Shown one piece after another: positions 6,968-58,098 of a stretch of 64,000 nucleotides of DNA (position 1 is the stretch's first letter; each line of letters begins with the position of its first letter). This DNA is from Candidatus Aenigmatarchaeota archaeon (GTDB lineage: Archaea; Aenigmatarchaeota; Aenigmatarchaeia; CG10238-14). The stretch is from assembly GCA_018920345.1 (NCBI GenBank), contig JAHLMN010000005.1, positions 12,255 to 76,254 of the forward strand, read 5' to 3'. A program made the translations under genes and the position numbers. The notes beneath the pieces were generated by a model. That model saw nothing but the letters and a program-made list of their open reading frames with translations. It had not been told where the DNA came from and did not search any database.

Positions 6968-6974
6968 GGTGTTG

Positions 6975-15990: not shown

Positions 15991-16032
15991 TGTTATAGTT
16001 AACTATAACAAATTTTGCCAAAATTGGCAAAA
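15991..16032. promoter_or_regulatory. Two adjacent palindromes in a promoter region: perfect 20-bp TGTTATAGTTAACTATAACA, then TTTTGCCAA-aa-TTGGCAAAA (9-bp arms)
   Basis: Read directly from the sequence. A third partial copy (TGTTATAGgTAACT) lies at 15958-15971. They sit immediately upstream of the ATG at 16066. Confidence 0.45.
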
Positions 16033-16065
16033 CATACAGTTCAGACCGTCTGGCCGGGGGGTGTC

Positions 16066-17949: not shown

Positions 17950-18170
17950 ATTTGTTTTGTCGAAATAAAATGCTTTTCTATTCGACACTTTTCTATTCGA
18001 CTTTTTGAAAAAACTTAGAATCGACAAAATAGACAATGCATTTTAAAAAGGCTTTTTTCTCCTTGTTTTTTTGCCTATCAAACATAGTTTTTGTTTCGAT
18101 TAAAAAGAAAATGTGTCGATTCGACTTTTCTTTTCTATATATTAGAAGGAGTTATATCAATCGACAATAT
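17950..18170. promoter_or_regulatory. Divergent intergenic region with at least 8 TCGAC-containing motifs, including a 15-bp tandem direct repeat CTTTTCTATTCGAC(A/T)
   Basis: gtcgaa (17960), cttttctattcgaca (17973-17987), cttttctattcgact (17988-18002), aatcgacaaaatagacaat (18019-18037), tttcgatt (18094), tgtcgattcgac (18113-18124), aatcgacaatattgtt (18159-18174). The pentamer is GC-rich in an AT-rich genome, so the enrichment is strong. Confidence 0.5.
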
Positions 18171-18211
18171 TGTTATACAATATTGGCCAATCTAAGAAGG
18201 AGGATATCCTC

Positions 18212-19069: not shown

Positions 19070-22000
19070 TCAAAAATTCAACAAAAGCCAAGTTTCTCTT
19101 GCCTTAGCTATGCCTATATTCTTCTTACCTATTCTAGTAATTCTTCCTCTATATCTTGCTTTATCTTTACTTGTGCTATATATAGCCTTCATAAACTTAA
19201 GTAAAAAATCTGAAACAGGTCAAAGCCAGTTGTTAGCTTCTTTGATTGTCTTGTTAATAACCTCTACTTTAGTAATAGCAACCAATTCCACAATTACAAA
19301 TAATACTATCACAGGAATGTTCACAGAAGTCATGCCAGAAGAGATTGAAAAAACAGCTCAAATAGAAGTGTGGGCAAATACATTTATTGAAACTTCTGAA
19401 GAAAACAATCTTATAAAAGCTAGATTATTAATGGATAATGGTTCTTTTGTTAGCGGACAAGAAATTTTATCATATTTTAATGATCAAGTTCAAAATATTC
19501 AAATCACAGATAATGATGGTTATGCATACTTTGATAAAAACATAACTAAATTAGAATATAAAGGAAACCAAAGTTTATATTTGAACCCCAGTTTTATTGA
19601 AATAAATTATACTCAGACTTTAACTAGACAAGATTTCTTAACAGTTTTTACTGACAAACAGTTTTATGAAAGTAATGAGACAGTAAATGTTTTCGGTTAT
19701 GTTTCAATAAATGGCTCAGTAGAAGTTGAGATAATAGTTGAAAAAGACAGTCAAGTATACAAAACACAAACAATATCTGCTGAAAACGGTTCATATAATT
19801 ATAATTTTATTGTTGATTTTACCGAGCAAGGTGTTTATACAATAAAAGTAAGATCAATAGGTTTGATAAATACAACAGCATTTGAATATAGGTTGCCAAA
19901 GAAACTAAGAATAGAGGCTACTGCTTTTGCAGAAAATATAGGAAAGACAAAATTAAAGTCAATAATTGTTAACGGAAGCGTTTTTTCAGGAGATACAAAA
20001 ATACCAGCCTTAATAAAAGTAAAAATTTACAATGTTAATGGAGAATTGGTATTGCAGAGTCAAAAGCAAATTGTAAATAATTTCTTTTTCAATTTTACTC
20101 ACTTGCCGAAAACATATGGCAAATATTATGCTGAGATAAATGCTGAAACTGAGTTAGGCAATGTAAGCGAAACAATTTATTTTGATGTTTTAAAGCATTT
20201 AGTACTAAAGCCTTTAATAAAACAAGAAAAATTCAATTATGAGCTAGGAGAAAAAATAAGATTCCAAGTAGATGCTGTTGATGAAGATGGAAATATCTAT
20301 TCAGATGTAAATGTTTCTGCTTTTGTCGTTGATCCTGATGGCAATGTAACAGAAGCAAATGTTATAGCAGATGAAACTTTACCAGGAAGATTTTATGTTG
20401 AGTTAGATACTGAAAGAGAGTTTAGGCCAGGCGTGCACAAGCTAAAAGTTCGACTAAACTATATTAGTCCAAACCCAGGTGAGGTTGTTGTTGAGGAGGA
20501 AGTGGAATTTGCTGTTGGTTTGATTAATGTTAATACAGATAAAAGTATTTATTTACCAGGAGATAAAGCAAAGATAACAATTGGAGTTTTAAATAATGAA
20601 GGAAAAAGGGCTTATGATGCAACTGTTATTATGAATATAATAACCCCATCAGGGGAAATTTTTACATACAATAGTTATAATGGAGATTTTTCAACAGACG
20701 AAATTGACGGTAGTTTAGCTTTGCTTTATGATGTAAATGAAACTGGCAATTATTCGATAGATGTTTTGGCATATGGTTCAAATTTTTCAGTTAATTACCA
20801 GACATTTTTTGAAACAAGAAATTATGTAGATTTTGATATACAGAGAAAGGTAAAAACACTTATAGACATAGGACATCCAAATACAGCTGAAATAAAAATC
20901 AAATCCAATGTTAATGCAAACAATGTTACATTGATAGAAAAATTACCTAATAGTTTTTTAGAAATAACAGCATATGGAGCTAGAATAGAAAGAAAGGAAA
21001 ACGAAACTTGGATTATATGGAGTTTTAATAAATTAAATGAAAATGATGAAAAAACATTAAAATATAGCTTCACAACCCCTGATGTTAACCCAGCAATTTA
21101 TTTAGCAGGCCCATTAACAGTTTATTATAATGATTCATTTGTTTTTGAAGAATCAAAACCTTGGACATTTATTGTAGTTGATGTTGTCTATTATTTCTTT
21201 AAATTCATGCCTTATTACTATAGAACTAACAATGTAACTGATTCTGTTCAGCATATAGTTTTTAACAGCTTTGATGAATATAGAGATCCCGTTATTATGT
21301 GTAGAAACCACGAAAATTATTCTTTGAATGTTCTATTAACAGATGAAGCAGATGATGATAATGGAATAATTCAACAATGGGAACTACAAATTTATGATGG
21401 TTCATGGAAAGCAATAACAACAAATGGTGTAGCAGGATTTTATATAATGTCGGGAGAAACTAATCCTGTTTCAGGTAGTGGTGTCGGTACAACAGATACA
21501 TGTACATCAAACTTTGGTGTAGCAGGTGGTGATAAATGTGAATGGGGTGAACATTTCAGATGGAACATAACAATTAATAAAACAGCACCTTTAGGTTTAA
21601 CGAAAATAAGAGTTTTGCCAAAAACAAGAACGCAAGGTCCGATGTTCAATACAAATGAATTTTATGCTTATATAATAGATTGTCAAGATATTAATCTTGT
21701 AAGACCAATAAAAATATTTGGTCCATCAGGTGAGCCAATAGACAAAATATCGAGAGGCCATATAGCAAAAATTGTAATTCCATTAGCAAATTATAACTCA
21801 TCTTTAAAAAAGGCTAACATAAGTATAGATATAAAAGATTCTACTGGAAACTCTGTTGATTGGTTTATTGAGGAAGGAAAAGTACAAACAGTATCTATAC
21901 CAGGAACTTTAACAAGACCAAATTGGAGTGAGAAAATAGTTGTATACACAGTATATGTACCTGATGAAGTACAAGCAACAACATACAGTATTTATGTAAA

Positions 22001-25000
22001 TATAACCTCAGATCAAGTAGTTGTTCAACATGCAAAAACTTTTACTGTGTATACAGATGAAGGTGGAACATCAAACGATATTGTTTTGTTTACAAGTACA
22101 CCAAGAAAATTAGGTGCAAATTGTGAGGATACAGGAGGTCAAACAACAGGTTGTGGTACAGGTCACGCATCTGTTTGTGCAGACGGAGATGGTCAACCTT
22201 GTTATAAAAATTTCAGAGAAATTTATGTATGCAATTATGGTGATTATAATCTTACAGTAAATATAACAGATTTTACCGCCGGCTCAAATGTATATTTTAC
22301 AACAGAGACAGATGGGCCTATGGCTGTTCCCCAACCTGATTATAATTCAACAGGTGAAGTTAGATGGTATAATGTTAAAATAAATACATCTTCTTGCTTC
22401 ATGGCAGAAATTCCATATAGACCGACAGACGATACTGGTGAAGAAACTTTTATTTTACAAGCCGAATGGATAGATCCTGTTACAGGAGAGTCACAAATGG
22501 TAACAAATAAACATATTTCATTAATATCTGCAACTACTGGAACACAATCTCCAACTATAACTACAATTCTTAACAGAACAACAGTGTATCCAAATGAGCA
22601 ATTACCTTTAAGAGTTATTGCAAAACTTGGAGGAAGTGAAGGTTTTGCAGCAATCGATGGTGCAGCAACACACACTGTTGTTCATTATGTTGAATTATAT
22701 ATACCTCCAGGATTTGAAAGGCCAACAAACTTTAGAGTTGTGGATAATAATGGTGCAACTATTAGAGCAACATCACCAGATCCAGGATATCCAATAGGTT
22801 CTCCGGAAGAAGGTTGGGTCGTTAAATTTTCTCCATATTCAATTGGCGGTACAGTGATAAGATTTGCAGCTGCAGCAACACAGTCTGTTGGAAATATAAA
22901 CCATTATGTGGATTTCGTAACAACTGTTTTACCTGAAAATAATATAACTCCAGGTGGAAAAGTTTTTTATACAACCTATGTAGGTTGGATGAGACAAAAC
23001 AAAGATTACCTTTTCAAAACTGATAGAAACGTGTTAAGTGTTTTATCACCATTTATAAAAACTGTTAGATATTACAATACAACAATCAATAATGAAGAAA
23101 AAGGATTTCCTTCTTCAAATATGTGTCAGCCATTTTCTGTAAAGCTTCAAGTTTTTAACAAAGGAAATTTGCCAGCAACAAATTTCAATGTAACAGAAAA
23201 CAAATATAATCATAGTGTTACACACTGGAATGATTTGCAATTTTCAAATTTCAACCCCTCTGCAAATGTTTACAGCAGTAACGGCATAATTTGGGGAAAC
23301 AATAACATCAATTTTATACCAACTGGAAAGGATAATTCATTGAATTATACTTATATAATAACAGTACCTTATCAAACAAATGGAACATTTGTTTTCAAAG
23401 CTTTGACAAGAAATATGACATATATCTTCTATGACAAAAATTATACATCATTAATTTCATGTGGAGCATCATTAATTGTAAGTGAACCAATAATTAAAAA
23501 AGGTGAAATAACAAACCCACCAATTTATGCTGGTGACATTTTCAATATTTCTTCGACAATTTATAATGATGGCCCCGGAAATGCAAGCAATGTTATAGCT
23601 ATAATCAATTATACAGCTAATTTTGATGTTAGAAACTTTACTAATCACAATAGCAATATCACATATTTAGGAAATATTCAAAGCAAAGAATCAAAAGTTG
23701 CTCACATAGATTATACTTATACTGTTAATACTACAGGTGTATTACCAGGTACATATACATTTTGCATAATAGCGAATGCAACAGAAAATGCAACAAAGGT
23801 TGCTGCTTGTAAAGATGTAACAATACAAGCTCCACCAGCAACAATAGAATTAGAAAATCCACTAATTATAAGTAAAGAAACAGGCAGCTCAAGCGGTTCA
23901 TGGGGTTACAATTTTACTTTCAATATAAGCGTAAGAGTAAGCAATTCAGACACAGATGTTTCTATTTGCTCTTATTTCAGCAAAACAGGAAACGAGCCAT
24001 GGATACAAGTTGGCGAATGCCAAAACTATCCAGCTCCAGGCCAATCTATAGGTCAATGGCAAAACTTTACATATGAATTTGATCCTAGTTGCAATGACAT
24101 AGGTCAAATAGTTTTTGTAAAATTCAACGCAACCAATAATGCAGGCACAAGCAATTCAACGCAAACAACATTTTCAATAACAAAAGATAAAATTGCATTT
24201 GAAAACTTAATTGGTAATAATACAGAAACAAGAAGAGGTAAAACAGCAACTCTGCTTGCGATTAGAACTAGAGATGCAAACGGCACACTTGTGACAAACT
24301 TACCATTAACATTTTTCGTCACATTAGATGGCACCATTTATGATTCTGGTTATTCAACAACAACAAATGCTTCTGCTTATGCCAATTATTATTTCCAAGC
24401 ATCATGCTCGCCAAAATACCAAGTTGGTTTGCAAAAAGTGAAAATTGTTTTAGCTAATAACGAATGCTATCAAGACAACAACACAGAAAGTTATTATAAT
24501 ATTTATACTAATGTTACAGGTGATATAATTTTATCTTTTGTAAGGCCTGACGGCTCTGTGAACTATACACAAGAGCAAGAAATTCCATTTTTAGGAGCAG
24601 TCACAGATGATTGTAACGATCCTATAACAGCTACAATAAAATATTTCATCAATCAATCTTCATCCAGCATAGAATGTGAAGACATTAGTCAAGTTGGTTC
24701 CAATGCATTTACTTGTGATTTACCAACAACAATAAACACACCAATGGGTTGGTATAACACGAGCATGTATGCCAATAAATTGCAACATTACAATAATTAT
24801 ACAAATAATTTAGGTAACCCAGGATTGTTCTATTTATTCCCAATCAAAAAATTATTACAACCGTCTGCTTATCCAACAACAGAAGGTTGGGGTTATCCAA
24901 ATTGGAATTTCTCAATAAATGTGAGCAGCGGAGATTCTGAAAATGTTTTGTTAGCTAGTCTTTATATGGCTCAATATTGGCCTCCAACCTATCCTTGCCC

Positions 25001-28000
25001 ATCTAATATTTGCTTGAACCAAACACCTTTAGAATGTGCAAATTGTATAGGTTCTGTAAAATATTGGTATCGCAACTTTACAGCTTATGAACAAGGAATA
25101 TGGTATTATCAATTCAAGCTAGATGGTACACAAACAGATCAAGTCATTTCAGTAACAGTTGAAAAAGATGATACAAATATAACTTATGGTGGTGAAGGAA
25201 ATTTAACAACAGTTATAAAAGATGTTCAACCTCAATATTTGTCAGCAAGAGTTTATGATTTGGATAGACAAACTTATAATGTTACTTCACCATCAGCTAC
25301 AGTTACCTTTAAGCTTTATAACAGCAATTATCCAGATGGTTATATAATTTTAGGTTCGGCCTTAACAAATGAAACAGGTTATGCAAGATTTTTGTTTAAC
25401 ATCACCAATTGCTATGGTTTTTATGAAGGAACTCAATTATGGACAGCTGAAATAAATTCCTCTGAGCCATATTACAAACCAAGCCAAATGGGTAACGGTA
25501 CTATAACTATTCAGTTGCCTGGATGCCAACCACAAATAGATGTAGAGCAAATATTGACGCCAAAAGAAGTATTTTCTGGAAGAAACTTTACAGTAAATGC
25601 AACTATAACATCTTGGGTCGCTTCAGCTGAAAATGTTTACGCAACTATTTATTTGCCTGCAGGTTGGCAAGTTGACCAAGCTATAAAGAGTTTAGGCACA
25701 GTTAATGTAGGCGAGCACGTAAGAATATCTTGGAATGTAAATGCAACAACTGATGGTGTTGAAAACATCACAGTTTATGTAAATTCGACAAATGCTAACA
25801 ACGACGTCATTTATTCAAACAAGATCATTTCATATAAGCCAATCACATCATCAATAATTGAAACATTACCAAAAATTATTCAGCCAAGCCAGAGTCAAAT
25901 ATTCAGCTTTTTATGCGAAGCAGGTGATTATAGAATAGCAAATATAACTACTAACTGGAATGGTACAAATACAAAGGCAAAACTATATTCCTATAACGGC
26001 ACGACCTGGATAGATATAGGAGAAAGATATTTGAATGAAACAAAAATAGAATTTATTCCTATCTTGCAACATCAAATAAATTCAAATGAAACAGGATATT
26101 GTTTGATAAAAATCCAAAACATAGGAGACAATTATATCAATATTAGCAATATACAATTTTCAGCATACTACAATGAAACAATAAAAATACAAGACATTAA
26201 TACAACTGTTTTTGGCAATCAAATAACTGGAATAGAGCCAAATCAAAAATTAAATGTAACTGTTAAAGTTGCAAATTCAGGGCAAGGTCAAACAGGTATT
26301 TTGTGGCTAAACATCACAGGGCCAACTGGTTTGGTAAATTATTCTTCACAGAACATTAACATACCAAATGGCATAAGCTTTTTCAATATTAATGACATAG
26401 ATACTTCAACTTGGCAAGAAGGAACATATTCTATTAAAGCATTTGTAGATTATGGCAATAAAACAGAAAGAATTGAGCTATTAGAGTTGAGACAAATACA
26501 AGCAAGGATACATGCATATAATTGGATGTGCAATTCTTCAACCGAAGATCTATCTGTAGATATTTATCATCCATTTAATGATGATATACAATACAACATT
26601 TCCTTGCAAGTCCCATCTGGTTGGCAATATTCACCTGTTTATCAACTAATAAATGCATCTACTAAAGGCAATTACACAGCCAACTTCACCATAACTTCAG
26701 GCAATACTGCTGAAGTAGCATTAATAAATGCTTCTATTGTCTACAACTATCCTCAAGAAAAATCTTTGCAAGTAACTAAACAAATTATAAGCAATTCAAT
26801 TGCAATTTTAGAAGTTATAAGAGAAATGCCGAAATATGTTGGTAATGACAAAGTTTTTGATGCTCAATTAGTAATACACAATAAAGGTTGTGCACCAACA
26901 ACAGGAACAACAACTGTTTCAGAGCAAATATCAGCAGGATGGATACCAGCAAACCCATTCATAAAGAAAAATGAGTATGGTGACAATATAGAGCTAATAT
27001 CAACACAAGTTGATTTAATTAAAAATAAGGTAACATGGAATTTAGGCCAAATAGGCGTGAATGAATATGCTGTTTTGACATATCAAATAAAAGCACCAGT
27101 CGATACTGCAAGAGAAGGTCAATTCACTTGGAATGTTTCTTGGGATGGAAAGAGTTTGAGAGAAAGAGACCCATATAATGTGCAGACAGCTAATTATTCA
27201 AATGAAGCTCATTTAGAGTTTGATTTAGAGGCCTTGCAACAAGAAGCCTATCCGTGGGTCGAGCCAAGATCTGCTCAGCTAAATAGAAATTATGAATATG
27301 CATTAAAAGTCACAAATGTTGGAGATAAAAATGCAACCGATTGGACAATAACACTATATGTTCCCGAAGCTTGTGATGTCAAGGCAATAAAGAACAGTGG
27401 CAGTTGGAACTCAACCTCAAGAAAAATCTCTTGGTCTTTACCTGAAATAGAGACTTATGAAAGCACTTATTTGAACTTTACATTGAATTGTACAATTGAA
27501 GGAAAGAAAATATTAATAGCAGAGGCATTAAAAGACGAAAGACAACAAATAGCTTTCACAAACGACACAAGCATCTCTTGTTATGGTCAAGAATGTTTAA
27601 TTGAGCAGCCATTCACATTTACAAAACCAGTTAATGCGAGATATGAAACCCTATCTGCTTTAAACATGCTGGTAAATTATGATTGGAGCGGGTTTAGAAA
27701 CACAATAGGAGAAGGAAAGATAACTTTCACAGACGATTTAGGAAACTATTACACTTTATGGCAAAATTACAGTCATGATAGCACATCATCATCTTTATGG
27801 CAAAATTACACAATTCTGGAAAATGAAAAGTATGTTTCTCCAACAAGAAAAATAAAAATAGAAGGTTATGCAGATGCAACTGATGATGCTTTAACAAATG
27901 TTACTATTAACAAAATAAATTATGTCTGGAATGTTGGAAAATACTTCCAAGAGCCACAAGAATTGTTTATAAAGACAAAGATATACACATATAAACCTTT

Positions 28001-31000
28001 ATTAGAAAATGCAACTCTCTACATTAATGGTAATAGCAGCAGAATTATAGGTGGATGGGGAGAAACATTTAATTTTTCTGTAATGTTGAGAGATCGTTTT
28101 GGTAGAGACGTCACTGTCTATGCATGGCACAAAAAAGGTGCTGGGGAATATAGTTTAATAGGAAGCTGGACTTGTTATTCATGCTTGGAATGGAATCAAG
28201 CGAACTTTAGTTATGACTATATAGGCAGTGATATAAGCAGCTGGGAGTTCAAATTTAATGCAACTAATGCTGACGGCACTTCAACATTAAACGGTTATCC
28301 ATATACAGTTGAAGCAGATGACATAAATGTTGATTTTGCTTATCCAACCTATAACATGACTGTTAATAGAAGTGGAACAAGCAATTTTGTAATTTTGGTT
28401 TATGATAGAGACAATCAAACCTCTCCAGCTTATTTAATGCCTGGAGAAACAGATGAAGGTAAAGGAAGAATTTATATTTCAAAATTCGGTAGTAATACAA
28501 CATTTGATCTATCCCCTTCGCTTTCAGCAAACTCTACCGGTCATGTAGTAAGACAAATGAGCAATATAATACCGCAATGGTGTTTGGTAAGCGATTATTA
28601 TTTAGGACAAAATTATTGGAAGGGCGGGATAGAAGGTGCAGTGACTTACAAGAATAATGCAACAGGTATTTATCCATTTATGTTAGTAGGTGATCTATCA
28701 AATTCTTACTTAACACAACCAAACAACAAAAACTTTACAAGAGGCTCAACAATCAATTTAGACGGAGTCATAAAAGACGATTGCAATGATGTAAAAACAG
28801 ATTCTGCAAGATTTGGTGCAGAATATATATTGACGCATGAATCAACTGAATACAGAATTACAGCTTCTTTAACTTCAGCTTCCTTTGAAATTCCGTTAGA
28901 CGCACCGCTAGGCTGGTATAATATTACAATGATATCATTCTCAGAAGGTATTGATAATGACAAATATTGGAATGGCACATATTTCAAGCAAAATGCATTT
29001 TTCTTAGCATCCATACCTCAACTAAACAATGTTCAAGTTCAGCCATATCCAAAAGGAAGTTGGGAAACAAAACCATTCAACTTTTCTGTTTACATAACAA
29101 ACATAGATAATGAAACAGTTTTTGCTAGACTCTGGTTCAAAAACCAAACAGATGATTGGTTCTTGCAAAACACAACTACTTGCAGTAATTGCGACAATTA
29201 TTATTTCTTGACACAACACAACTTCACTTGCTATAATATTGGTGAATGGAAAGCACAATTTAATGCAACTTCAGCTACTTCATTTAGCAATTTGACAACA
29301 ACAATAACATTTAACATTACAAAGTCTGATATCTCTATATTACATTCTTCAGGAAATAACACAATTGTTAATAGAAGTGATGACGAACCAGCTAATACAA
29401 GAGAACTATCTGTTCAAATATTCAATCTAGTTACAAACAAAAATGAGACAGCAATATCAACATCAGACGTCTACACATGGGTATATGATGGCTCTACATA
29501 TATAGAACAGCTTGAGACAGCAAATACTTCACATTACTATTTCAATTTCAATCCATCTTGCAGTTATCAAGTAGGTAAACAAAAATGGAAAGTTAATACA
29601 ACTTCTAGCTGCTATTCAACAAACACATCAGAAGAATTTTACATAGATATTTATGGAAGTTTGAATAACACTTTGATTTTACCTGATGGATCTACAAATT
29701 ACACGCAAAATGATCAAATATTGCTTTTAGGCCAAATAACAGATGATTGCTCGCAACCAGTGTTAAATGCTAATGTAAGATTCAAACTTCAGTCTGGCTC
29801 AAACATCTATTACTGCCCATCTTCAGGTTATATAACAAATACAACAGGCAATTATTATTCATGTGTTTGGGATTCTTCCGGTAAACCAGGTGGTTTTTAC
29901 AATATTACAATGGAGTCAAACAAAGCATATCACAATAATGGAACAGACTATTTGCAAAACGCTTTCTTCCTCATAACACCTGTTCAGCTTATCTCACCGC
30001 AAGTTAGCTATCCTGGCGATGGTAGTTGGGGAGAGTTGCATAACTTTACTGTTTTTGTCACCCACTATGCTCCTGCAAATGTATGCTTGCTAGAAAGAAC
30101 ACCAACAACTCAATGGCAAGTAACAGAATGTAAATATGTTGAAAATCCACAAAATACATTTGTAAACTTTACAAGATACTATACTTGCGATGAATATCAA
30201 GCTTCAGCTTTGAGATATTTTGTATTTAATGCAAGTGAGCCAGGTGTTGCTGCAACATATTCAAACACAACCGAACAATCTCACGTCCTTGTTAAAAATG
30301 ACATAACAATAACTTATGTTTATGGCAACGAGTCTTTTGTCAATAGAAATGGCGCAAACACAACCAAATTTATATTGTTCGTGAATGATACAGACAGAAA
30401 CCAACCAGCATATTATTTATTAGGTGCTTCGGTAAAGCCACAAGTTTGGTTTAGAGTACACAATGCAACTAGCTATTTAGTTGATGGATATAATTCGACA
30501 AACACATCTGGATATGTCGAATATAATTTCAACCCATCTTGTAGTTATGAAGCAGGTAAATTTAAATGGCAAGGCTATACTTCTTCTGATTCTTGCTACA
30601 AAGATTATTCTGCAGAAGAGTATAATGTTACAATAATAGGTGATCTAGTTGCAAATGTCACATATCCAGATGGAATAACATACTTTAGAAATTTAGAGCT
30701 ATACATACCAATCAACGGCACAGTTATTGATGAGTGTAACTTACATTACAATGAAAATGCTACAGTAAACTTTACAGCAATTAGTGTTGGTTTTGGCACA
30801 GAATATCAATGCCTACCTGTTGATAATGCTGGTACAGGAAAGTATAATTGCACGCTAAATGCAACAACAATAGAAGAAGGTTGGTATAACGTAAGAATGA
30901 ATGCAACCAATGTGCAATATTATAATAACGCAACTATTTTAGCATCAAATAAATTTAGAGTCATTCAACAATGGGTTCCACCTATTTTAGAAAACGCAAC

Positions 31001-43000: not shown

Positions 43001-46000
43001 CGATGATTTGCAGTATGATAATGTTACATGCACATTATTTGTTTCAACAGATAATGGGTTAACATGGAAAAACAAAGGCAATTATACTGTTTATGGCGGT
43101 CGTGGCAAATGCATAGTCAATGTTTCTGATTTTGATTGTGGTGATATAGGAAATGACAATAGATATTTGTTCCAATTATATGACGGTACAAATTTAATAA
43201 ACACAACAAACAATACAAATCTAATAATAGAGCCAAACGATGTTGAAATAATATACATTTCTGGCAATAATACATTTGTCAACAGAAGTGGCAATCAATA
43301 TACAACATTTGTTGTACAAGTTCATGATCTAGATGCTAATACTTATCCAAAAGATGTAAACATGTCAGTATTTGTTACAGTCGACAAAACAAACTATTTA
43401 ATAAACTCAACACCTAGATCTGACATCAATGGTATGCTTTACTATAACTTTAATCCATCTTGTACTTTTAATGAATTAGGTATGCAATATTGGCTCATAG
43501 GTGCAGATAACAATGTTTGCTATAAGAGTGTTAACACAACTCAAAATTATACAGTCAATATAATAGGAGACATTTTAAACAGACTAACAACACCAAGTGG
43601 TCAAGACTTTTTAAGAGGAGAAGATAATATTACTTTCACTATAGAAACATCAGATGATTGTGCTGCACCTGTGGATAATGCAAATATTAATTTGACATTA
43701 ATAAGCGAATATGGAAATACATACAGTTGCGAACCAATAGATGAGTTTGGCGGAGGAATTTATTATTGCACTAAAAATACAAGTGGCATGAGAGCAAGAT
43801 GGTATAATGTAAGTGTAAACACGAGCAAAGAATTCTTTAACACAAATGTTTCTTTACATGTAAGACCATTTTTCATTAAAACCATGCCAATAGTGCAGAA
43901 TTTAACTATAACACCAGCACAAGATTGGGGTTGGGGTGAAAAATATATATTTACAGCAAATGTCACTGATGAAGATTTAGACACAGTTTACGTCAATCTA
44001 TATTATACACCAGTCGGTTTTGATGATTGGGTTCAAATAAATTCAACAACAATAACTTCACCATTCAATACAACTGTTACATTAACATATCAAGGATTTA
44101 CATGCTCTGATATAGATTACGAGCAAGAATTTGAATTTACTGTTTTAGACAATAGATCTTACTTGGTTAATAGTACAGTACGGGAGCCATGGAAGAAGAA
44201 ATTCAATTTAACAAAAGATGATGTTCAAATAATTTATGAAGCAGGAAATGGCGAAGAGGTATGGAGAAACGGTACTGACTCAAGAAGATTAAGCATAAGA
44301 GTATATGATACTGATAAAGGCAGTTATCCTGGCTCAGGCTACAACGGCATGTTCTGGGTAACGACAAATTATGCTCAATTTGATATAGGCAAAGCGACAA
44401 CAACAAACTCTTCAAGCTTTTTGAATTATTATTTCACTTCCGAAGCACCTCAGCCTGAGTGCGATTATTTAACAGGTGTGCAAAAATGGAAAGCTGGCAT
44501 ATATGATGATGCATGCTATAAAGATACTAACTCAACCAATTATACAATTACAATTAAATCAGAGTTAAGGCCACAAATAGATTATCCATATGGACAAGGT
44601 TTCATAAGACCAAATCCAGTTCCATTCATTGCAAGAATATATGATGATTGTGGTTTGGTTTCAGGGGCGACAACAACTTGGACAGCATATAATGGACCAA
44701 ACGAATATGGTTGCACCAATAAAACAGAAGCTAATGGCTGGTATAATTGTACATGGCCATCTGCTAACAGACCTTATGGATATTACAATCTTCAATTTGC
44801 TGCTACCAAAAACTATTATGCACCTAATAACACTTATAGAGCAAACGCATACTTCTTAGGCACTCTACCACAACTTTCTGATCCAAAGATACTCAACAAT
44901 CATTATTTAGGTGGATGGGGAGAAACTTATGAATTTTCTGTTAAGCTAACAGATTTTGACTTGAACACAAACAATGTAAGTGTTTGGAAGAGTTTTGACG
45001 CTCAAAATTGGACTCTAGTTGCTTCGCAAAATGTTTCTAATGCTGTTAATCAGCAAATAATCTTCCCAGTAAAATTCAACTGCAGTGACATGGGCTTTAA
45101 CTATTTCTACTTTACTTCTGTTGACCAGTTTGGCTATTCAACAAACACAACAATATTGAATTTCACTTTAGAAGCTGATAATGTCACTTTATCTATTGGT
45201 CTAATAAATACAACTGTTAGAAGAATAGGAGAACAACAAGCTTTGTTGAACTTTACAATTTATGATGATGATTATGGAAGATATGCACCAAATGCTTTAG
45301 GCAACATAAACATTACTTTAGATTATTCTAACTATTCTTATGTCTTCAATTGTACTACTAATGAAAGAGGTCAATGTTATATATATTATAATCCAAACTG
45401 CTCTTCTTTAGCTGGTGTACAAAGTTGGATAGGTAAAACAGTTGATAGCTGTTATCAAATAAAAGAAACTTCACCAACTAGCTTGGCTGTCATAGGCCAA
45501 TTAAACACATCTATTTTGAATCCTTACAATGGACAAATATTGAACAGAAATCAAAATGCTTCACTAAACACAATAATATTAGATGAATGCTTTAATGAAG
45601 TAAGTGGGGCAACAGCTTTATGGTATAATGAAACTTGGAGCAACATAGCTTCTGGTTACAATACTAATTGGATAATACCAACTTATTATGAGCTTGGTCC
45701 AGAAACAATTTATCTAAATGTAAGCAAAACATATTATGATCCAAACAGCAACAAAACAAATGTCTACATATATGGTTGGAGCGGCATTAGCATCTTAAAC
45801 CCACTTGATTCATCATTCTATTTAGCTGGAACATCAGTAAATGTTAAATGCAAAGTTATAGATCTAAACACAACAATGCCTTTACAATCATATATGGTCA
45901 AATTCTATAAGAATGGAACTTTAATGGACACACAACCAACTAATTCAGATGGCGAGGCATTTTGGTTATGGCAAACCATGACAGAAAATTATGGATGGTA

Positions 46001-49000
46001 TAACATTACATGCTCAATAGATGATAATACAGTTATGTATTACAATGCAAGTATTCCAAGAGCAACTTCTCTTGTTGAAATAAAGAGGCCTTTGATAATT
46101 CAATCAATAGATAAAAGTTCTCCATTTGTTTATAGAAATGATAGTTTTGTTCCAAATAATGTTAACATAACAGTAAGAATTAAAGATGCATTAATTGGAG
46201 ATGCAGAAAATGCAAATGTTACTTTCTATAATTCTACTGGTTTAATAGATTGGTGTTTGACAAATTCAACAGGTCAATGCTTTATAACATTTAATCCAGC
46301 TGATACAATAACACCAAACATTTATACAATTTATGTTAATGCAACTAAAGTAGGCTTACAAGACTCTGTTACAAATACAACAACAATAGAAGTGAAAGGA
46401 AAGCTTTTTGTCAACATATCTTCACCTTTAAACAATAGTTTCTGGGCAAGAACAGACAATATAGCTTTAATAGCTTCTGTTTATGATGAAGCTGGTCAGG
46501 AAACAACAGCAACAGTAAGATGGTTTAATGAAACAGCTCAAGTTGCCTCTGGCGAAAACAGCAATTGGTATTTAATAGAGCAAACAACAGGTAATCATAC
46601 ATTAACAGTAAATGCCACAAGAGATTATTATGATAAAGGTGAACAAACAATAATAATAACAATAAGCAGCTTGTCAGATGTTCAATGGATTTATCCAAAT
46701 GATGGCAGCATAATGCCATACCCAGATGCATTCAACACTTTATGTAGAGTAATAGATAGCAGCACAGGCACTCCAATACCAAATTACATGGTGCAATTCT
46801 GGTATAACTATACACCTGGTTATATTTTCAATGGTACATTGTATACAAATGCTTCTGGTATAGCAACAAATACATGGCAACCTCCACAAAAAGGTCAAGT
46901 TATGTTTAGATGCAATATAACAAATGATTATGAAAAATTATATACAGCAAACATAAAAGAGGCATTTGCACTAATTACAATAAGAGATATAAGACCACCA
47001 CAAATAAACAATATTTCTATTCAACCTTATGCAGGTTTAGAAGCCAATTTAAATTACACAAACATCTCAGCTGTTATAACAGATGATATAGCTGTATATG
47101 AAGCCTGGGCACAAATAACAATGCCTAACAGTACTATATTGAACTTAACAATGCCTAATAGTGGTAATACTTATAGTGTTTTGTATCTACCTCCAATAGG
47201 AGGAAATTATAGTGTAAGAATATATGCAAGAGATTATCCACCAGAAAGCAACTCCAACAACACATTTGCAGGAACATTTTATGTAAATGGCAAAACTAAT
47301 GGTATTATAACTCAACCTGATAATATACAAATAAATGGCATAACATGGACAAGCTCTGAATCAGCAGAATTAACAATCAATTTCACTAATATAGGCCCAG
47401 CAACTGCTTATGCTGTCAATATTTCATTCATTTCTGATCCATTAAATTCACTTATATTAAATGAAACCATTCATGAATGTGGCACAGTCTATAATCAAAG
47501 CTCTTGTATATTTGGTTTACTAGTCACAGTGCCAGCTGCTACACCACCTTCAGCTATCAAACTTATATCAAATGCAACTTGGCGCAATCCTGACTTGACA
47601 AAAAGTTTCACAACAGAAGATACTAATTTTGTTGTTATTTCAAACAAGATAATTGATATATTACAAGACAACATAACAGCTATTGCTCCTCATGACAAGC
47701 TTACTGATTTACCTGATATAACTGTTCAATCTTTAGGAAATGACATGATAACTGATATAAGCATAACAACAACAGGCGGCAACATATCAACATTATGTCC
47801 AGACTGCGAACTAATAATTGTTCCAAATGAATGGGGTCTACTTGAAGCAGGAGCAAGCTTTGTTTCTGATTTACGTATAAATGTGCCAAGAGCACAACCA
47901 CCAGGAACATACTGGACTTATATCAAGGCAGCATCAGTTGAAACATCGCCAGACTTGATGCCTTTGTATATTACAGTGCCGCTAAATACATCATGGTCAC
48001 GCTCTCCTGAAAACTTTGGCTTAATATTAGCTCCACCAAACACATCTGGTTATATAGGTGAAATAACAACAACAAGCTTTGCAAATATAAGATTAATATT
48101 AAATGCTTACAAACTACAGAACGGCTCACAACTTTTCAACATTTATCCATCTGCTTTCAGTCTTGACAATGGCGCTGTGAGAAACATCACTGTCACATAC
48201 AATATACCCTCATCTTTCATTTCTTCTCAAGGATTATATTATGCTCAAATAATTATAACAAATGAAACAGCAATGCCAAATGAATACAGAACAGAATTCT
48301 GGTTAAATGTTACAGATATACCTCCAATAATATCAAATGTATCTTTTGTGCCAACTGAGTTTGAAATGATTTATGAATCAACAAATATATCAGCAATTAT
48401 TAGAGATAATTTTGCAGTAAGCTCAGCTTTCCTAAATATAACTTTACCTAATAGCACTAGCTTTACTCAACCTATGAATAATACAGGCTCTTATTATTCA
48501 ACTATTTACACAAGCAACATACATGGCTATCATAATATAAGTATTTGTGCAATTGATACCCAAGGCTTACAGGGTTGTACAGAACCAACACCAATATTAG
48601 TTTCAGGTGAAACAACAATAAGAAATGTCTTTAACATAAGCAAAGCAGTCGTGCCTAACATCACTTTGTCAAATGGAAATGAATTTGCAATAACATTTAC
48701 AACAAATAACACAGGTTTATCAAGAGCATTTAATATTTCAGTAAATATAACAACACCTTCAAACATATCATCAAACATAAATTCAACTTTCTATTCATTG
48801 CTTTTAAAGAATCAATCATCTAGTCAAGTAGTTGAATTTAATGTTTCAGCTGCGACAAGACCAGGCATTTACAAAATTAATTTCACAAACAATTGGACAA
48901 ATTTAGATCAAACCATTTCCTCTTCCCTCGATCAGCTAGAAGTAGAAGTATTATCAAATCCAAGATTGAATACAACTGAAAACATTACAGTTTATGTACC

Positions 49001-52000
49001 AGATGGAACTACAAACAACGCTACTATGATATTGCAAGCATCAGGTAATGATGATGTCTACAACATAACATTCTCCTGTCTTGATGGTGTAGCTTGTCAA
49101 GACTTTAATGTTTCATTCTATCCAACATTCATAAACAGAATTAATCTAACTGATACAGATTTAGTAAACATTTCAGTTTCAGTGCCAAAACAATATATGA
49201 CAGGAAGATATAATGGAACAATACTAGTAAATGCAACAAACTTTTCCATGGTCGTGCCTCTATATGTAATAGTCCCAATGAACATTTCTTGGTCTCAAAC
49301 ACCTTTAGAGATTAGCAAGACAGTTTTAGGCGATACAAAAGGTGTATTTGGTGAAATAGAATTGCAAAACACAGGCAATGCACCTGTAATTCTAGAAATT
49401 CTCAAATCAGGAAATATTAGCAACTATATATCTTTATCTGAGAGCAGCATAACAATACCAATAGGTCAAACATATTTAATAAAAATAAACTATACAGTTC
49501 CTGTCATAAATCAAGAAAGCAACTTTACAGGTGAAATAATTATAAGAAATACAACAGCTGACCAACAAAAACAAACATCTGTTTCTCTATATGTATTGCC
49601 ATACTATGTAAACATAACAAAACCAACCGAAGTTGAACCTATTGTAAACATAGCATTTGGAGATGTAGTAACATCTTATGTCAATGTAACATATAGTCAA
49701 ACAATAACAGAAAATGTAACATTCTATTTAAGAATTGGAAACGAATCATTCTCACAAGCAATAGTGGTTGATTCATCTCAATTCTTACCTGACATGCAAT
49801 TATGGCAAATAAACTTCACTGCACCTTTATTACCTGAAAACAGAGCTTATGATTTAAATGTAACAGCTTACTATTCAACAAAGAATGTTACAAGAAGTGA
49901 TATAGAATATAAAGCAATAAACTATAGAGATTCTATACCACCAAATATAACATTAATAACGCCACTCAAAGTTCCAGCTGGTTATATAGCTATAATAGAT
50001 GCACTAATATATGAAGAAGGCAATCTAAAGAATGTTTCTGGTATAATAACATATCCAGATAATAGAACAGAGTATGTTAATTTTGCAAGATTAAAGAGAA
50101 CAAACAACACATATTATTATCAACACAATATAACTAATACAACTTTGCTTGGCGTTTACACAATAAATGCAACAACTTGTGACTTTTCAGGTAATTGTGC
50201 TAATGCCTCAGCAGAATTTAGCATATATCCAGCTGCATTATTCCATGGTTATTCAAAAGATTATGAAGCAGCTTCTGAGCCAGTACAATTTGTTAACTTT
50301 AGCTTATATCAACCTGGAGTAGAATTGCTTTTATTCAACATTACACCTAACATGCAAACAGGTTATTATTCTGCTTTAATAGATGCAAGATCATATGACT
50401 TGCAAGCTTCCATATTCAATTCTACTGTTTTAGCCAGAGATGTTGAAATTATACAAGATGTCTTCAATCCAATAATATTTGGTGATATACCATCAGAAAA
50501 AATAAGTCTTGGTGCATTAACAGGTTTGTATGTAGAATCTATATTGAATACAACTAACACAAGCATTAAGATAGATTATTCACCTTATATTAGCAAGGAA
50601 ATATGTAAGATGAATAATGATTGTAGACCAGCATTATTCTTTGAAGAACATCTTTCATTATTTAGATGCAACGCTTGGACAAGAAAGATTGGTTGCTCAG
50701 GTGGTTGGACAAGGCTAGATACAAAAATAAATACTACATTACACTTTGCTGAAGTTGAAGTTATAGGCAATATTTCAGGTGCTTATGCATTAGCTCCATA
50801 TATTTGTGGCGATGGCATATGTGATCATGGTTATGGAGAGTCACCGTTCACATGTCCAAGAGATTGTGAATTACCAAGGCCAGTACCTGTTCCACCAGCA
50901 GCAGGAGGTGGGGGTGCAGGTGGAGGCGGTGGTGGAGGTGCTGCAGGAGGAAGAGAAGTAAGCATATCTGTACCAGGATTGCCTTATTCAATAAAATCAA
51001 CTTTGTTATTCATCACAATAAAGCCAGGTGAGCAAGAAATACACTCTATTGAAATATCAAATAATGAAGACAAAGAGATAGAAGGCCAACTAAAAGTAGA
51101 AGGATTTGCTTGGGAAATGATAATGCTTGAAGAGCCAGTGTTTAAAGTGGCACCAAAAACTACCAAAGTAATAAAAGTTAAAGTCTTTGCCCTACCAACA
51201 ACTCAGCCTGGTATATATACAGCTGATCTAGTCACAACAATTAATGGCGAACAGCATAGAACACCAATAACAATAAAAGTTGAATATGGTCCAGAGCCAC
51301 TATTAGACGTAAAGATAGAAGCATTATCCAAATCAGTGAGACCAGGAGAAGAGGCAAAATTCCAAGTTACAGTGCTAAATATGGGTCAGACCGCGACAGT
51401 AGAAGATATAGTATTGAATTATACATTAAGGAATTTAAGAACAAACGAGATGATTTCTGTTGGGCAAGAAACAATAGCTGTAGAAGATGTTAATACATTC
51501 ATCAAATCCTTCCATATACCAGAAGATACACCAACTGATAGATATGTCATAGAAGTTACAGCAAGCTATTGGTATGGCAAAAAACAAGCTAGAGCAGCTG
51601 CAGCATTTGATGTTGTTTACTTGCCAGCACCATTGATAATATTGAAAGCTCTTGCTACAAGCTGGATCACATATTTAGTAGTCCTTATAATTGCGCCAGC
51701 TGCTGCAGTTGGCTATAGAGCTTACAGATATTATACAACTATGAAGAAGATTAAAGCCAAATACATATTCCCTGTTGATATAAAGAAGTTACCACAACCA
51801 GGACCAAACACAATATTAGTTGGTAAAGTTGCTGAAACAGATATAAATGCTTATACAGATGTCAACAAGCTTGTCATGCATAGCTTAGCAGCAGGAGGTA
51901 CTGGATCTGGTAAAACAGTATCGGCTATGGTTACAGCAGAAGAATTGCTAAAGAGAGATATACCAATAATTGTCTTTGACCCAACAGCTCAATGGACAGG

Positions 52001-58055: not shown

Positions 58056-58098
58056 CTTTTTCTTTTATATTTTCAGTTTAATTATTAAATTTTTGAAA

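What the first reader, a model, noticed from the sequence alone, without database searches (positions are those of the whole stretch)
19300..50800. Very high density of N-glycosylation sequons and conserved cysteine pairs in the ectodomain
NxS/T sequons occur every few residues throughout (for example NSTITNNTITG, NETGNYS, NVSAF, NITIN). Each module carries about 6-8 positionally conserved Cys (NPSCSY, DSCYKD, DDCSQP, YYCPSS, YNCTW). This implies a heavily glycosylated, disulfide-stabilised extracellular fibre. The locus also encodes a DsbA-like CPHC protein (6097-6471) that could service such disulfides.
Basis: seen in the sequence. Interest (0 to 1): 0.5.

Follow-up and report, generated by a model that had tools for sequence, protein, structure and literature searches.

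The report
Glycan-coated, disulfide-stapled giant archaeal surface protein
The region is the outer part of an 11,259-residue surface protein of a tiny DPANN archaeon. Its glycosylation sites and paired cysteines are real, strongly conserved and shared by giant relatives in many DPANN lineages, so it is a well-documented new member of a known kind, not a new kind.

Summary
Observation confirmed. ORF 19062-52841 (+) encodes 11,259 aa.

**Sequons.** The ectodomain (aa 76-10850) has 513 N-x(not P)-S/T sequons against 190±12 expected from composition (z≈28). About 48% of all Asn carry S/T at +2, and reversed or other-residue controls are flat. The cytoplasmic tail has none.

**Cysteines.** Nineteen ~325-aa modules, each three β-sandwich domains, carry 4, 6 or 8 Cys in fixed columns.

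**Relatives.** In 159 modules from related genomes, 98% have an even Cys count. Five Cys column pairs are gained and lost together. Two of these pairs are inferred to staple neighbouring domains.

**Selection.** Against a 72%-identical orthologue, sequon Asn is 92% conserved versus 71% for other Asn, and Cys is kept 50/50.

**Identity.** It has the architecture of the SPEARE-type giant proteins of DPANN archaea: Ig-like arrays, a C-terminal transmembrane helix, a cytoplasmic HerA/FtsK-like ATPase and a coiled coil. Most of the 80 best related loci encode giant versions with the same 4-7 sequons per 100 aa and 1.2-1.6% Cys.

**"DsbA-like" protein.** It is not a DsbA. It is a small glutaredoxin-like CPHC protein in an uncharacterised three-gene cassette shared with CPR bacteria.

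**Not shown.** Glycosylation, disulfide chemistry and the presence of AglB in this genome all remain inferred.

The parts
19062..52841 (+). Giant ORF, 11,259 aa (1.26 MDa, ectodomain pI 4.6)
19095..19286 (+). N-terminal hydrophobic segments (aa 21-39 and 57-75): signal anchor or uncleaved signal. The topology is not resolved.
   Evidence: hydropathy scan
19287..50921 (+). Sequon-rich, Cys-bearing ectodomain (aa 76-10620): 512 sequons. Only β-sandwich Pfam matches are found: MG2, NPCBM_assoc and DUF11 above the gathering cut-off; Filamin, CARDB, Big_7 and Big_1 below it. No enzymatic domain is detected.
23856..24839 (+). Module M1 (aa 1599-1926), an isolated copy of the three-domain module
28011..45836 (+). 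Eighteen consecutive three-domain modules M2-M19 (aa 2984-8925). They are 20-42% identical to each other, with a super-repeat of three modules. Together with M1 they hold 128 of the 180 ectodomain Cys.
42924..43886 (+). Module M17 (aa 7955-8275), the one modelled. It forms three β-sandwich domains. Cys are at module positions 36, 63, 72, 180, 199, 246, 269 and 282.
50604..50951 (+). Cys-rich segment (8 Cys) followed by a Pro/Gly-rich linker (aa 10515-10630)
   Evidence: conserved Cys in the consensus
50952..51611 (+). Membrane-proximal, sequon-poor β-sandwich region (aa 10631-10850; 1 sequon). It is conserved in the ~725-aa short forms of the family.
51636..51710 (+). C-terminal transmembrane helix (aa 10859-10883)
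51729..52838 (+). Cytoplasmic HerA/FtsK-superfamily P-loop ATPase plus terminal coiled coil. Walker A GTGSGKT starts at aa 10946 and Walker B VYDEVH at aa 11072. There are 0 sequons.
52888..54291 (+). 467-aa cytoplasmic coiled-coil protein. A homologue lies immediately downstream of the giant gene in 77 of 80 related loci.
18170..19069 (+). Upstream gene that overlaps the giant start by 8 nt. It has a winged-HTH N-terminus, a hydrophobic segment read by eye as transmembrane, and a sequon-rich C-terminal part (8 sequons vs 3.4 expected).
14830..15723 (+). Exported 297-aa protein with 12 sequons vs 4.2 expected. Homologues lie about 10 kb downstream of the giant gene in 6 other loci.
6097..6471 (+). 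It is the first gene of a conserved three-gene cassette.
6464..6967 (+). Membrane protein with a signal peptide and then CPLC at the outer N-terminus. It has no Pfam or NCBIfam match. There are 171 homologues, in Aenigmatarchaeota and CPR bacteria.
6969..7529 (+). Third cassette gene: a soluble 186-aa protein with the motifs GEVWCISKH and C-terminal IDCCKE. It is highly similar to its CPR counterparts.

Best explanation
The flagged region is the ectodomain of a SPEARE-type giant surface protein of an Aenigmatarchaeota (DPANN) archaeon.

Proposed mechanism
1. The polypeptide is exported and stays anchored by a C-terminal transmembrane helix (shown by sequence).
2. It folds into roughly 100 β-sandwich domains. 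These include 19 copies of a three-domain module (modelled).
3. About 500 Asn-x-Ser/Thr sites are N-glycosylated by the archaeal oligosaccharyltransferase AglB (inferred from selection on the sites).
4. The cysteines form disulfides in fixed pairs (inferred from parity and co-evolution). In module HMM positions these are 35-62, 165/166-173 and 268-281 within domains. Pairs 71-199 and 181-245 link domain A to B and B to C (inferred from loop topology).
5. The result would be a stiff, glycan-shielded stalk, hard for proteases to cut. At about 4 nm per domain it would reach a few hundred nanometres.
6. The stalk is coupled through the membrane to a HerA/FtsK-type ATPase, probably hexameric, and a conserved coiled-coil partner.
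7. The most likely role is contact with a host cell, as proposed for the nanohaloarchaeal proteins.
For: Sequon excess and its specificity. Positional conservation of sequons within the protein. The same across genomes: r=0.76 between the window and other genomes, with 22 columns at 25% or more.

Selection, tested against orthologue L001 (71.6% identical ectodomain): sequon Asn 146/158 kept vs 110/155 for other Asn. S/T at +2 is kept in 149/158 vs 266/390 for other S/T. Cys is kept 50/50.

Family level: most of the 80 best related loci have an ORF that stays open through the whole 10-kb upstream flank. These carry 4-7 sequons per 100 aa (about 3x expectation) and 1.2-1.6% Cys, at GC contents of 26-60%. 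Their cytoplasmic domains are depleted in sequons, 38 vs 81 expected.

Cysteines: 156 of 159 modules have an even count. Co-occurrence tables (both / one only / neither) are 44/0/115, 132/3/24, 147/0/12, 98/1/60 and 33/1/125. Paired columns change on the same tree branch in 11 of 12, 5 of 7, 4 of 5, 2 of 2 and 1 of 1 cases. Non-partner columns almost never do.

Fold: pLDDT 94.4, pTM 0.77, three β-sandwich domains. Matches are strings of complement and α2-macroglobulin MG domains, titin, Hoc and the H. volcanii S-layer protein.

Anchor: Pfam DUF87 at 38.4 bits against a cut-off of 23.2. HerA is the best solved relative by sequence and by fold.

Architecture matches published giant nanohaloarchaeal proteins (PMC10266531, section 11; PMC6642349). 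AglB is reported in DPANN generally (PMC8993221).
Against: There is no direct evidence of glycans or disulfides. No AglB signature (WWDYG) occurs in the window or in 86 fetched loci, though these cover only small parts of the genomes.

Many DPANN live without oxygen and have no known DsbB/VKOR-type oxidase, so the source of oxidising power is unknown.

The inter-domain assignment of two Cys pairs rests on secondary-structure topology, not on measured distances. Pair 35-62 is supported by only one evolutionary event, and pair 181-245 by two.

A host-contact role is extrapolated from other lineages. No lectin, LamG or enzyme domain was found.
Confidence: 0.72

Rival explanations
1. The N-x-S/T excess is a by-product of composition or of β-strand sequence patterns (alternating polar residues in an Asn/Thr/Ser-rich protein), not of glycosylation.
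For: The ectodomain is 10% Asn and 18% Ser+Thr. About 69% of mapped sequon Asn fall in predicted strands, while strands make up 59% of residues.
Against: Composition shuffles give 190, not 513. The reversed motif and N-x-x-[ST] are at background. No other residue in place of Asn is enriched, and Pro at +1 is depleted. Sequon Asn and its +2 S/T are conserved far above other Asn, Ser and Thr. Cytoplasmic domains are depleted.
Confidence: 0.04
2. The conserved cysteines are not disulfides. They are metal ligands or free or otherwise modified thiols, as might be expected for an anaerobe without a Dsb system.
For: Some modules have CxxC in the first domain. No DsbA/DsbB/VKOR family member was recognised in the window. 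Many related genomes come from habitats that are probably anoxic, judging by the record titles.
Against: An even Cys count in 98% of modules, and strictly pairwise gain and loss, are the signature of disulfides rather than of 3- or 4-ligand metal sites. Partners sit in loops that face each other in the model topology. An exported CPHC oxidoreductase cassette is present.
Confidence: 0.1
3. The protein is a cell-envelope coat, with an S-layer-like or matrix role, rather than a projecting fibre or host-contact device. Both ends would be held in the membrane.
For: There are two N-terminal hydrophobic segments as well as the C-terminal helix. The fold matches include the Haloferax S-layer glycoprotein. 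High sequon density is typical of S-layer glycoproteins (PMC6098224).
Against: S-layer proteins are not fused to cytoplasmic ATPases. The ATPase and the downstream coiled-coil partner are the most conserved parts of the system. The related nanohaloarchaeal giant proteins are proposed, not shown, to act in host interaction (PMC10266531, PMC6642349).
Confidence: 0.1
4. The CPHC protein at 6097-6471 is a DsbA that specifically oxidises the giant protein's cysteines.
For: It has the same CPHC motif as E. coli DsbA (own knowledge) and an N-terminal membrane anchor. A CPR homologue has a lipoprotein signal, so the domain is probably outside the cell. It has weak matches to DsbA around the motif (E about 0.05) and to TrbB thiol-disulfide isomerase.
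Against: It is below threshold for every family. The best matches are glutaredoxin-like. It is too short for DsbA's helical domain. It is separated from the giant gene by 12.6 kb of housekeeping genes. The same cassette occurs in CPR bacteria. Flanking charges in the window protein do not clearly favour an outside orientation (own reading of the sequence).
Confidence: 0.15

Closest known systems
SPEARE / giant membrane-anchored surface proteins of Nanohaloarchaeota (Hamm et al. 2019, PMC6642349; La Cono et al. 2023, PMC10266531)
   Same: Very long, mostly extracellular chain of Ig-like domains. A single transmembrane helix near the C-terminus. A cytoplasmic P-loop ATPase, described there as VirB4/TraG-like, followed by a coiled coil. 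Hamm et al. already reported relatives of the cytoplasmic part in Aenigmarchaeota, Woesearchaeota, Micrarchaeota and Altiarchaeales. One of the loci found here is labelled Nanohalarchaeota (L014, 66% identity).
   Different: At 11,259 aa it is longer than the 9,409 aa cited as the largest. No LamG, β-propeller or toxin-like region was found. The ectodomain is built from an unannotated three-domain Cys-bearing module. The downstream gene is a coiled-coil protein, not a second ATPase. Sequon density and disulfide pattern were not found discussed for the giant proteins in those two papers. Direct alignment to a named SPEARE sequence could not be done.
Archaeal N-glycosylated S-layer glycoproteins (e.g. 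Sulfolobus acidocaldarius SlaA, Haloferax volcanii csg)
   Same: Exported β-sandwich-rich proteins with many N-x-S/T sites. The H. volcanii S-layer protein 7ptp is among the fold matches.
   Different: The S. acidocaldarius protein has 31 sequons (PMC6098224). The giant protein has 513, at 4.8 per 100 aa, and its relatives reach 7.3. It is a membrane-anchored ATPase fusion rather than a lattice protein.
HerA/FtsK superfamily hexameric ATPases (HerA 4d2i, SIR2-HerA, TcpA, FtsK)
   Same: Walker A and B motifs. Pfam DUF87 above its cut-off. HerA is the best relative by sequence profile (E=3e-8) and by fold (E=1.4e-9, TM 0.49).
   Different: It is fused behind a transmembrane helix to a 10,800-aa ectodomain. 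There is no HAS barrel and no NurA partner. The substrate is unknown. All NCBIfam equivalog scores are far below their cut-offs.
Macroglobulin (MG) domain strings of complement C3/C4/C5 and α2-macroglobulins
   Same: They are the best Foldseek matches to the three-domain module (E=2e-11 and weaker). Pfam MG2 matches aa 490-575.
   Different: TM-scores are only 0.25-0.43 at about 10% identity, so this is general β-sandwich-string similarity. No thioester, bait or CUB region is present.
DsbA/DsbB disulfide-forming systems (for the CPHC cassette)
   Same: An exported CxxC thioredoxin-fold protein encoded next to a CxxC membrane protein.
   Different: There is no DsbA helical insert and no DsbB or VKOR homology. 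A third, cytoplasmic Cys-containing protein is part of the cassette, which looks more like a trans-membrane relay.

Membership tests
SPEARE-type giant surface proteins of DPANN archaea | Very long polypeptide (thousands of residues), mostly outside the cell | tested here: met
   11,259 aa, with aa 76-10850 between hydrophobic segments
SPEARE-type giant surface proteins of DPANN archaea | Arrays of Ig-like or adhesion-type β-sandwich domains | tested here: met
   AF2 model of a module with Foldseek matches. Pfam MG2, NPCBM_assoc and DUF11 above cut-off; Filamin, CARDB and Big domains below it.
SPEARE-type giant surface proteins of DPANN archaea | Transmembrane helix near the C-terminus, then a conserved cytoplasmic ATPase and a terminal coiled coil | tested here: met
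   Transmembrane helix at aa 10859-10883. DUF87/HerA domain. Long C-terminal helices in the model at residues 311-379 of 380.
SPEARE-type giant surface proteins of DPANN archaea | Sequence homology of the cytoplasmic part to a named SPEARE protein | not testable with these tools
   No SPEARE sequence could be retrieved. Indirect support: Hamm et al. report Aenigmarchaeota relatives (PMC6642349), and locus L014 is labelled Nanohalarchaeota.
SPEARE-type giant surface proteins of DPANN archaea | At least one laminin-G domain in the ectodomain (stated for all SPEARE proteins by Hamm et al.) | tested here: not met
   No LamG match in Pfam scans of the whole protein. This is a descriptive rather than an architectural feature, but it marks the ectodomain as different.
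AglB-dependent archaeal N-glycoproteins | N-x-S/T (x not Pro) sites located in exported segments | tested here: met
   513 sites in the ectodomain, 0 in the cytoplasmic tail, and Pro at +1 depleted
AglB-dependent archaeal N-glycoproteins | The genome encodes the oligosaccharyltransferase AglB | not testable with these tools
   No WWDYG-containing ORF in the window or in 86 loci. The rest of the genome could not be read. AglB is reported for DPANN in general (PMC8993221).
AglB-dependent archaeal N-glycoproteins | Glycans actually attached to the Asn | not testable with these tools
   Needs glycoproteomics. Selection on the sites is indirect support only.
DsbA family (for ORF 6097-6471) | Thioredoxin fold with a CxxC active site | tested here: inconclusive
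   CPHC is present. Only sub-threshold glutaredoxin-like matches: Pfam E=0.002, and TIGR02180 at 24.8 bits against a cut-off of 87.
DsbA family (for ORF 6097-6471) | Inserted α-helical domain, with an overall length of about 190 aa | tested here: not met
   124 aa in total, about 85-90 after the anchor. DsbA chains match only around the motif, at E of about 0.05 or weaker.
DsbA family (for ORF 6097-6471) | DsbB or VKOR partner | tested here: not met
   The neighbouring membrane protein has no Pfam or NCBIfam match.
HerA/FtsK superfamily ATPases (C-terminal domain) | Walker A and Walker B motifs and a family profile match above threshold | tested here: met
   GTGSGKT at aa 10946 and VYDEVH at aa 11072. 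PF01935 at 38.4 bits against a cut-off of 23.2.
HerA/FtsK superfamily ATPases (C-terminal domain) | RecA-like core fold resembling HerA or FtsK | tested here: met
   Foldseek: HerA 4d2i at E=1.4e-9, TM 0.49; then TcpA and FtsK. The model has pLDDT 78.6 with one disordered stretch.
HerA/FtsK superfamily ATPases (C-terminal domain) | Hexameric ring that moves a polymer through its pore | not testable with these tools
   Oligomer state and substrate are unknown.

The most novel reading that the evidence does not exclude
The giant protein, its HerA-type motor and the conserved coiled-coil partner form one apparatus shared across DPANN lineages. Six glycan-shielded stalks, each stiffened by disulfide staples between neighbouring domains, would be bundled by a hexameric ATPase into a sub-micron device. 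That device would mechanically engage a host cell or move material to or from it. Its roughly 180 exported cysteines would be handled by a previously unrecognised three-protein thiol relay that DPANN archaea share with CPR bacteria: an exported CPHC protein, a CP[LV]C membrane protein, and a cytoplasmic protein ending in a Cys-Cys pair.
Probability: 0.15. Interest if true: 0.75.

Novelty: new member of a known kind. Interest (0 to 1): 0.45.

Why it matters
DPANN archaea are tiny and mostly uncultured, and most known ones depend on host cells. How they attach to hosts is an open question, and giant surface proteins are the leading candidates.

This work adds the following:
- The Aenigmatarchaeota version is longer than the 9,409-aa protein cited as the largest in cultivated archaea (11,259 aa).
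- The same three-domain module occurs in giant genes of many DPANN lineages. A full search found 881 representative proteins, and no Pfam model covers it.
- Two features appear to be under strong selection across the family: an N-glycosylation site density two to three times that of the Sulfolobus S-layer protein, and strictly paired cysteines. Two of the pairs appear to lock neighbouring domains together.

These are concrete predictions for glycoproteomics, disulfide mapping and cryo-tomography in the few cultivated DPANN systems.

It also raises a question: how do organisms without known Dsb or VKOR systems oxidise hundreds of exported cysteines? The cassette shared with CPR bacteria is a candidate answer that can be tested.

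Tried and rejected
- **Cys-Cys distances.** I wanted to measure them in the AlphaFold model, but the tool returns no coordinates. I used parity, co-occurrence, tree-based co-change and loop topology instead.
- **Word-indexed search with the module profile.** It found only 7 proteins, which wrongly suggested a rare module. Scanning the related loci and a full HMMER search corrected this.
- **Pfam and NCBIfam on the modules and on the non-module ectodomain.** Only generic β-sandwich families matched, with no enzyme, lectin or LamG domain.
- **Tandem repeat search on the DNA.** Only an 18-bp repeat in the Gly-rich linker was found. The modules are old duplications, not recent ones.
- **Search for AglB through its WWDYG motif** in the window and 86 loci. 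Nothing was found, but this is uninformative because genome coverage is small.
- **DsbA membership of the CPHC protein.** Rejected.
- **Apparent short 'closed' relatives** (L019, L023, L035, L052, L059). They start inside domains without a signal peptide, so they are probably broken by frameshifts or assembly errors. L078 (727 aa, with a signal peptide) looks like a true short form.
- **Possible link between the sequon at module position 280 and Cys 281.** No coupling.
- **Literature.** Searches found no description of this module, of the sequon density or of the disulfide pattern.

Full report
**1. What is at the coordinates**

The window has about 30% G+C. It holds one uninterrupted ORF, 19062-52841 on the + strand, of 11,259 aa and 1.26 MDa. 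The flagged range 19300-50800 is its ectodomain.

A hydropathy scan finds two N-terminal hydrophobic segments (aa 21-39 and 57-75) and one C-terminal transmembrane helix (aa 10859-10883).

The neighbouring genes include tRNA synthetases and RNA polymerase subunits Rpb6 and N. The closest database relatives are Candidatus Aenigmatarchaeota. A neighbouring gene is 99% identical to one in GCA_038997225.1. The C-terminal domain is 95% identical to isolate SKW179.

**2. Sequons**

- The ectodomain (aa 76-10850) has 513 N-x(not P)-S/T sites. Composition shuffles give 189.8±11.7 (z=27.7).
- 47.7% of ectodomain Asn have Ser/Thr at +2, against an 18% background. The same test with D, Q, S, T, G, K, E or Y in place of Asn gives 11-18.5%.
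- The reversed motif (200) and N-x-x-[ST] (167) are near the shuffle expectation for a motif of this composition (~190). Pro at +1 is depleted to 0.57x.
- The cytoplasmic tail has no sequon. The roughly 220 aa next to the membrane have one.
- Cytoplasmic proteins encoded in the window sit at expectation.
- The excess is therefore real. It is specific to the OST recognition motif and confined to the exported part.
- Density is 4.8 per 100 aa with a median spacing of 15 residues, so 'every few residues' is an overstatement.
- Two other exported proteins in the window are enriched to a similar degree, and two are not.

**3. Modules and cysteines**

- An iterated profile search of the protein against itself finds 19 complete modules of about 325 aa: aa 1599-1926, and aa 2984-8925 as 18 in a row.
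- Modules are only 20-42% identical. Identity is higher at lags of three and six modules (33-35% vs 27-28%), which shows a nine-domain super-repeat.
- There is no DNA-level tandem repeat, so the duplications are old.
- Conserved Cys columns are NPxC and DDC (19/19), xQC and YNC (17/19), and CYKD and F..C.D (14/19), plus a variable pair in the first sub-domain. Every module has 4, 6 or 8 Cys.
- The modules have no Pfam match apart from a weak, sub-threshold Big_7 hit.
- An AlphaFold model of module M17, using the 19 modules as the alignment, is confident (pLDDT 94.4, pTM 0.77). It shows three β-sandwich domains.
- The best structural matches are strings of macroglobulin domains from complement proteins and α2-macroglobulins, titin Ig triplets, phage Hoc and the Haloferax S-layer protein. 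That is generic bead-on-a-string similarity.

**4. Relatives**

- The last 630 aa have hundreds of relatives, annotated only as 'DUF87 domain-containing protein'. Named sources include Aenigmatarchaeota, Nanoarchaeota, Pacearchaeota, Altiarchaeota and Heimdallarchaeia.
- A scan of one genome per species found at least 585 loci.
- In most of the best 80 loci the reading frame stays open through the entire 10-kb upstream flank, so these are also giant genes. All of them have 4-7 sequons per 100 aa (about three times expectation) and 1.2-1.6% Cys, at G+C contents from 26% to 60%.
- The module profile matches 48 of the 80 loci, in the same position relative to the anchor. This yields 140 more full modules.
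- A full HMMER search of 1.84 billion representative proteins finds 881 proteins with the module.
- The cytoplasmic domains of the family are depleted in sequons, 38 vs 81 expected.

**5. Tests of function**

*(a) Selection.* The orthologue in L001 has an ectodomain 71.6% identical.

| Residue class | Conserved | Comparison class | Conserved | Fisher p |
|---|---|---|---|---|
| Sequon Asn | 146/158 (92%) | Other Asn | 110/155 (71%) | 8e-7 |
| S/T at +2 of a sequon | 149/158 (94%) | Other S/T | 266/390 (68%) | 3e-12 |
| Cys | 50/50 (100%) | All other residues | 1496/2110 (71%) | 7e-8 |

*(b) Position.* Twenty alignment columns carry a sequon in at least 5 of the 19 modules, against 0.7 expected for random placement. 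Column frequencies in the window correlate with those in other genomes (r=0.76). Six columns are occupied in at least half of the foreign modules.

*(c) Cysteine parity.* 156 of 159 modules have an even count.

*(d) Pairing.* The 'same-branch' column gives changes that fall on the same branch of a neighbour-joining tree, out of all changes in the first column of each pair.

| Cys column pair | Both | One only | Neither | Same-branch changes |
|---|---|---|---|---|
| 35 and 62 | 44 | 0 | 115 | 1 of 1 |
| 71 and 199 | 132 | 3 | 24 | 5 of 7 |
| 181 and 245 | 147 | 0 | 12 | 2 of 2 |
| 268 and 281 | 98 | 1 | 60 | 11 of 12 |
| 165/166 and 173 | 33 | 1 | 125 | 4 of 5 |

Non-partner columns almost never change on the same branch.

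*(e) Topology.* This step is my inference from the strand order.
- Cys 72 lies in the E-F loop at the C-terminal end of domain A, and Cys 199 lies in the F-G loop at the N-terminal end of domain B.
- Cys 180 lies in the E-F loop of B, and Cys 246 lies in the B-C loop of C.
- The pairs 71-199 and 181-245 would therefore be staples between neighbouring domains.

**6. The rest of the machine**

- After the last module come more β-sandwich domains, then a segment with 8 Cys, then a Pro/Gly-rich linker. A sequon-poor region shared with the ~725-aa short forms of the family follows. Last come the transmembrane helix and a P-loop ATPase.
- The ATPase has Walker A at aa 10946 and Walker B at aa 11072.
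- It passes the Pfam DUF87 (HerA central domain) cut-off.
- Its best solved relatives are HerA hexameric translocases, by sequence profile and by fold. The conjugation coupling protein TcpA and FtsK follow.
- The chain ends in long helices.
- The next gene (52888-54291) encodes a 467-aa coiled-coil protein. A homologue is found directly downstream of the giant gene in 77 of 80 loci.
- The gene just upstream (18170-19069) overlaps the giant start codon region. It encodes a winged-helix domain followed by a hydrophobic segment and a sequon-rich C-terminal part.

**7. Comparison with what is known**

- The architecture is that of the giant membrane-anchored proteins of Nanohaloarchaeota. Those have a signal peptide, about 75 Ig-like domains, a transmembrane segment, a cytoplasmic VirB4/TraG-like ATPase and a terminal coiled coil. 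They are proposed to bind hosts and possibly to transfer effectors (PMC10266531, section 11).
- Hamm et al. named them SPEARE proteins. They noted relatives of the cytoplasmic part in Aenigmarchaeota, Woesearchaeota, Micrarchaeota and Altiarchaeales (PMC6642349).
- I therefore file this as a new member of that kind, with four differences:
  - It is longer than the 9,409-aa protein called the largest.
  - It has no LamG, β-propeller or toxin-like region.
  - Its ectodomain uses an unannotated Cys-bearing module.
  - It has a different downstream partner.
- Direct alignment with a named SPEARE protein was not possible.
- High sequon density is known for archaeal S-layer glycoproteins. The S. acidocaldarius protein has 31 sites (PMC6098224); assuming a length of about 1,400 aa (own knowledge), the density here is roughly twice that.
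- I found no discussion of sequon density or cysteine pairing for these giant proteins in the two SPEARE papers or in the searches made.

**8. The 'DsbA-like' protein**

- ORF 6097-6471 (124 aa) has an N-terminal hydrophobic anchor and CPHC.
- It matches only glutaredoxin-like families, below threshold. It matches DsbA chains only around the motif.
- It is too short for DsbA's helical insert.
- It is the first gene of a three-gene cassette:
  1. The CPHC protein.
  2. A membrane protein with a signal peptide followed directly by CPLC (6464-6967).
  3. A soluble protein with the motifs GEVWCISKH and a C-terminal IDCCKE (6969-7529).
- None of the three has a significant Pfam or NCBIfam match.
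- The same three genes, in the same order, occur in two CPR bacterial loci (L086, L087). In a third (L084) the first two are clear and the third position is partly masked.
- One CPR CPHC homologue has a lipoprotein signal, so the domain is probably outside the cell.
- This is a reasonable candidate for handling exported cysteines in general. It is not a DsbA, and nothing links it specifically to the giant gene, which lies 12.6 kb away.

**9. Verdict**

The DsbA remark is only loosely right.

The finding is a solid characterisation of a member of a known class, with some new structural predictions. It is not a new kind of system.

Noticed in passing
window 5838-7529: An ArsR-type regulator gene precedes a three-gene cassette with no family annotation. 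The three genes encode an anchored CPHC glutaredoxin-like protein, a membrane protein with CPLC at its outer N-terminus, and a soluble protein with GEVWCISKH and a C-terminal IDCCKE. The same three genes, in the same order, occur in two CPR bacterial loci (L086, L087). In L084 the first two are clear and the third position is partly masked. The cassette could be a thiol-disulfide relay of ultra-small prokaryotes.
   Followed up: partly
window 52888-54291: A 467-aa coiled-coil protein with weak SMC/Rad50-like and SHOCT-like matches. A homologue lies directly downstream of the giant gene in 77 of 80 related loci, so it is probably a fixed partner of the ATPase anchor.
   Followed up: partly
window 61333-63081: An exported 582-aa protein with 46 Cys (7.9%) but only 1 sequon where 6.9 are expected. 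This is the opposite pattern to the giant protein. It has no NCBIfam match.
   Followed up: no
window 18170-19069 and 14492-14740 (-): The gene overlapping the giant start codon encodes a winged-HTH domain, a hydrophobic segment and a sequon-rich C-terminal part, so it could be a membrane-bound regulator. A small paralogue of its HTH domain lies at 14492-14740 on the other strand.
   Followed up: no
window 14830-15723 and 16015-16776: An exported sequon-rich 297-aa protein and a 253-aa protein without family matches. Both have homologues about 6-10 kb downstream of the giant gene's ATPase region in 6 and 8 other loci. This suggests loose linkage to the system.
   Followed up: partly
window 28011-45836: The 18 consecutive modules show a higher-order repeat of three modules (about 985 aa). 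Identity is 33-35% at lags of 3 and 6, against 27-28% at other lags, and each of the three types has its own Cys pattern in the first domain.
   Followed up: yes
window 50952-51611: The roughly 220 aa next to the membrane are almost free of sequons (1 here; 1.06 per 100 aa across the family, against 4-7 further out). They are conserved in the short forms of the family. They may be buried in an oligomer or under the cell envelope.
   Followed up: partly
window 57972-58174: Two adjacent tRNA genes, tRNA-Ser(GGA) and tRNA-Pro(GGG).
   Followed up: no
L019, L023, L035, L052, L059 (related loci): Apparently shorter relatives start in the middle of a domain and have no signal peptide, so they are probably giant genes broken by frameshifts or assembly errors. 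L078 (727 aa, with a signal peptide) looks like a true short form.
   Followed up: partly
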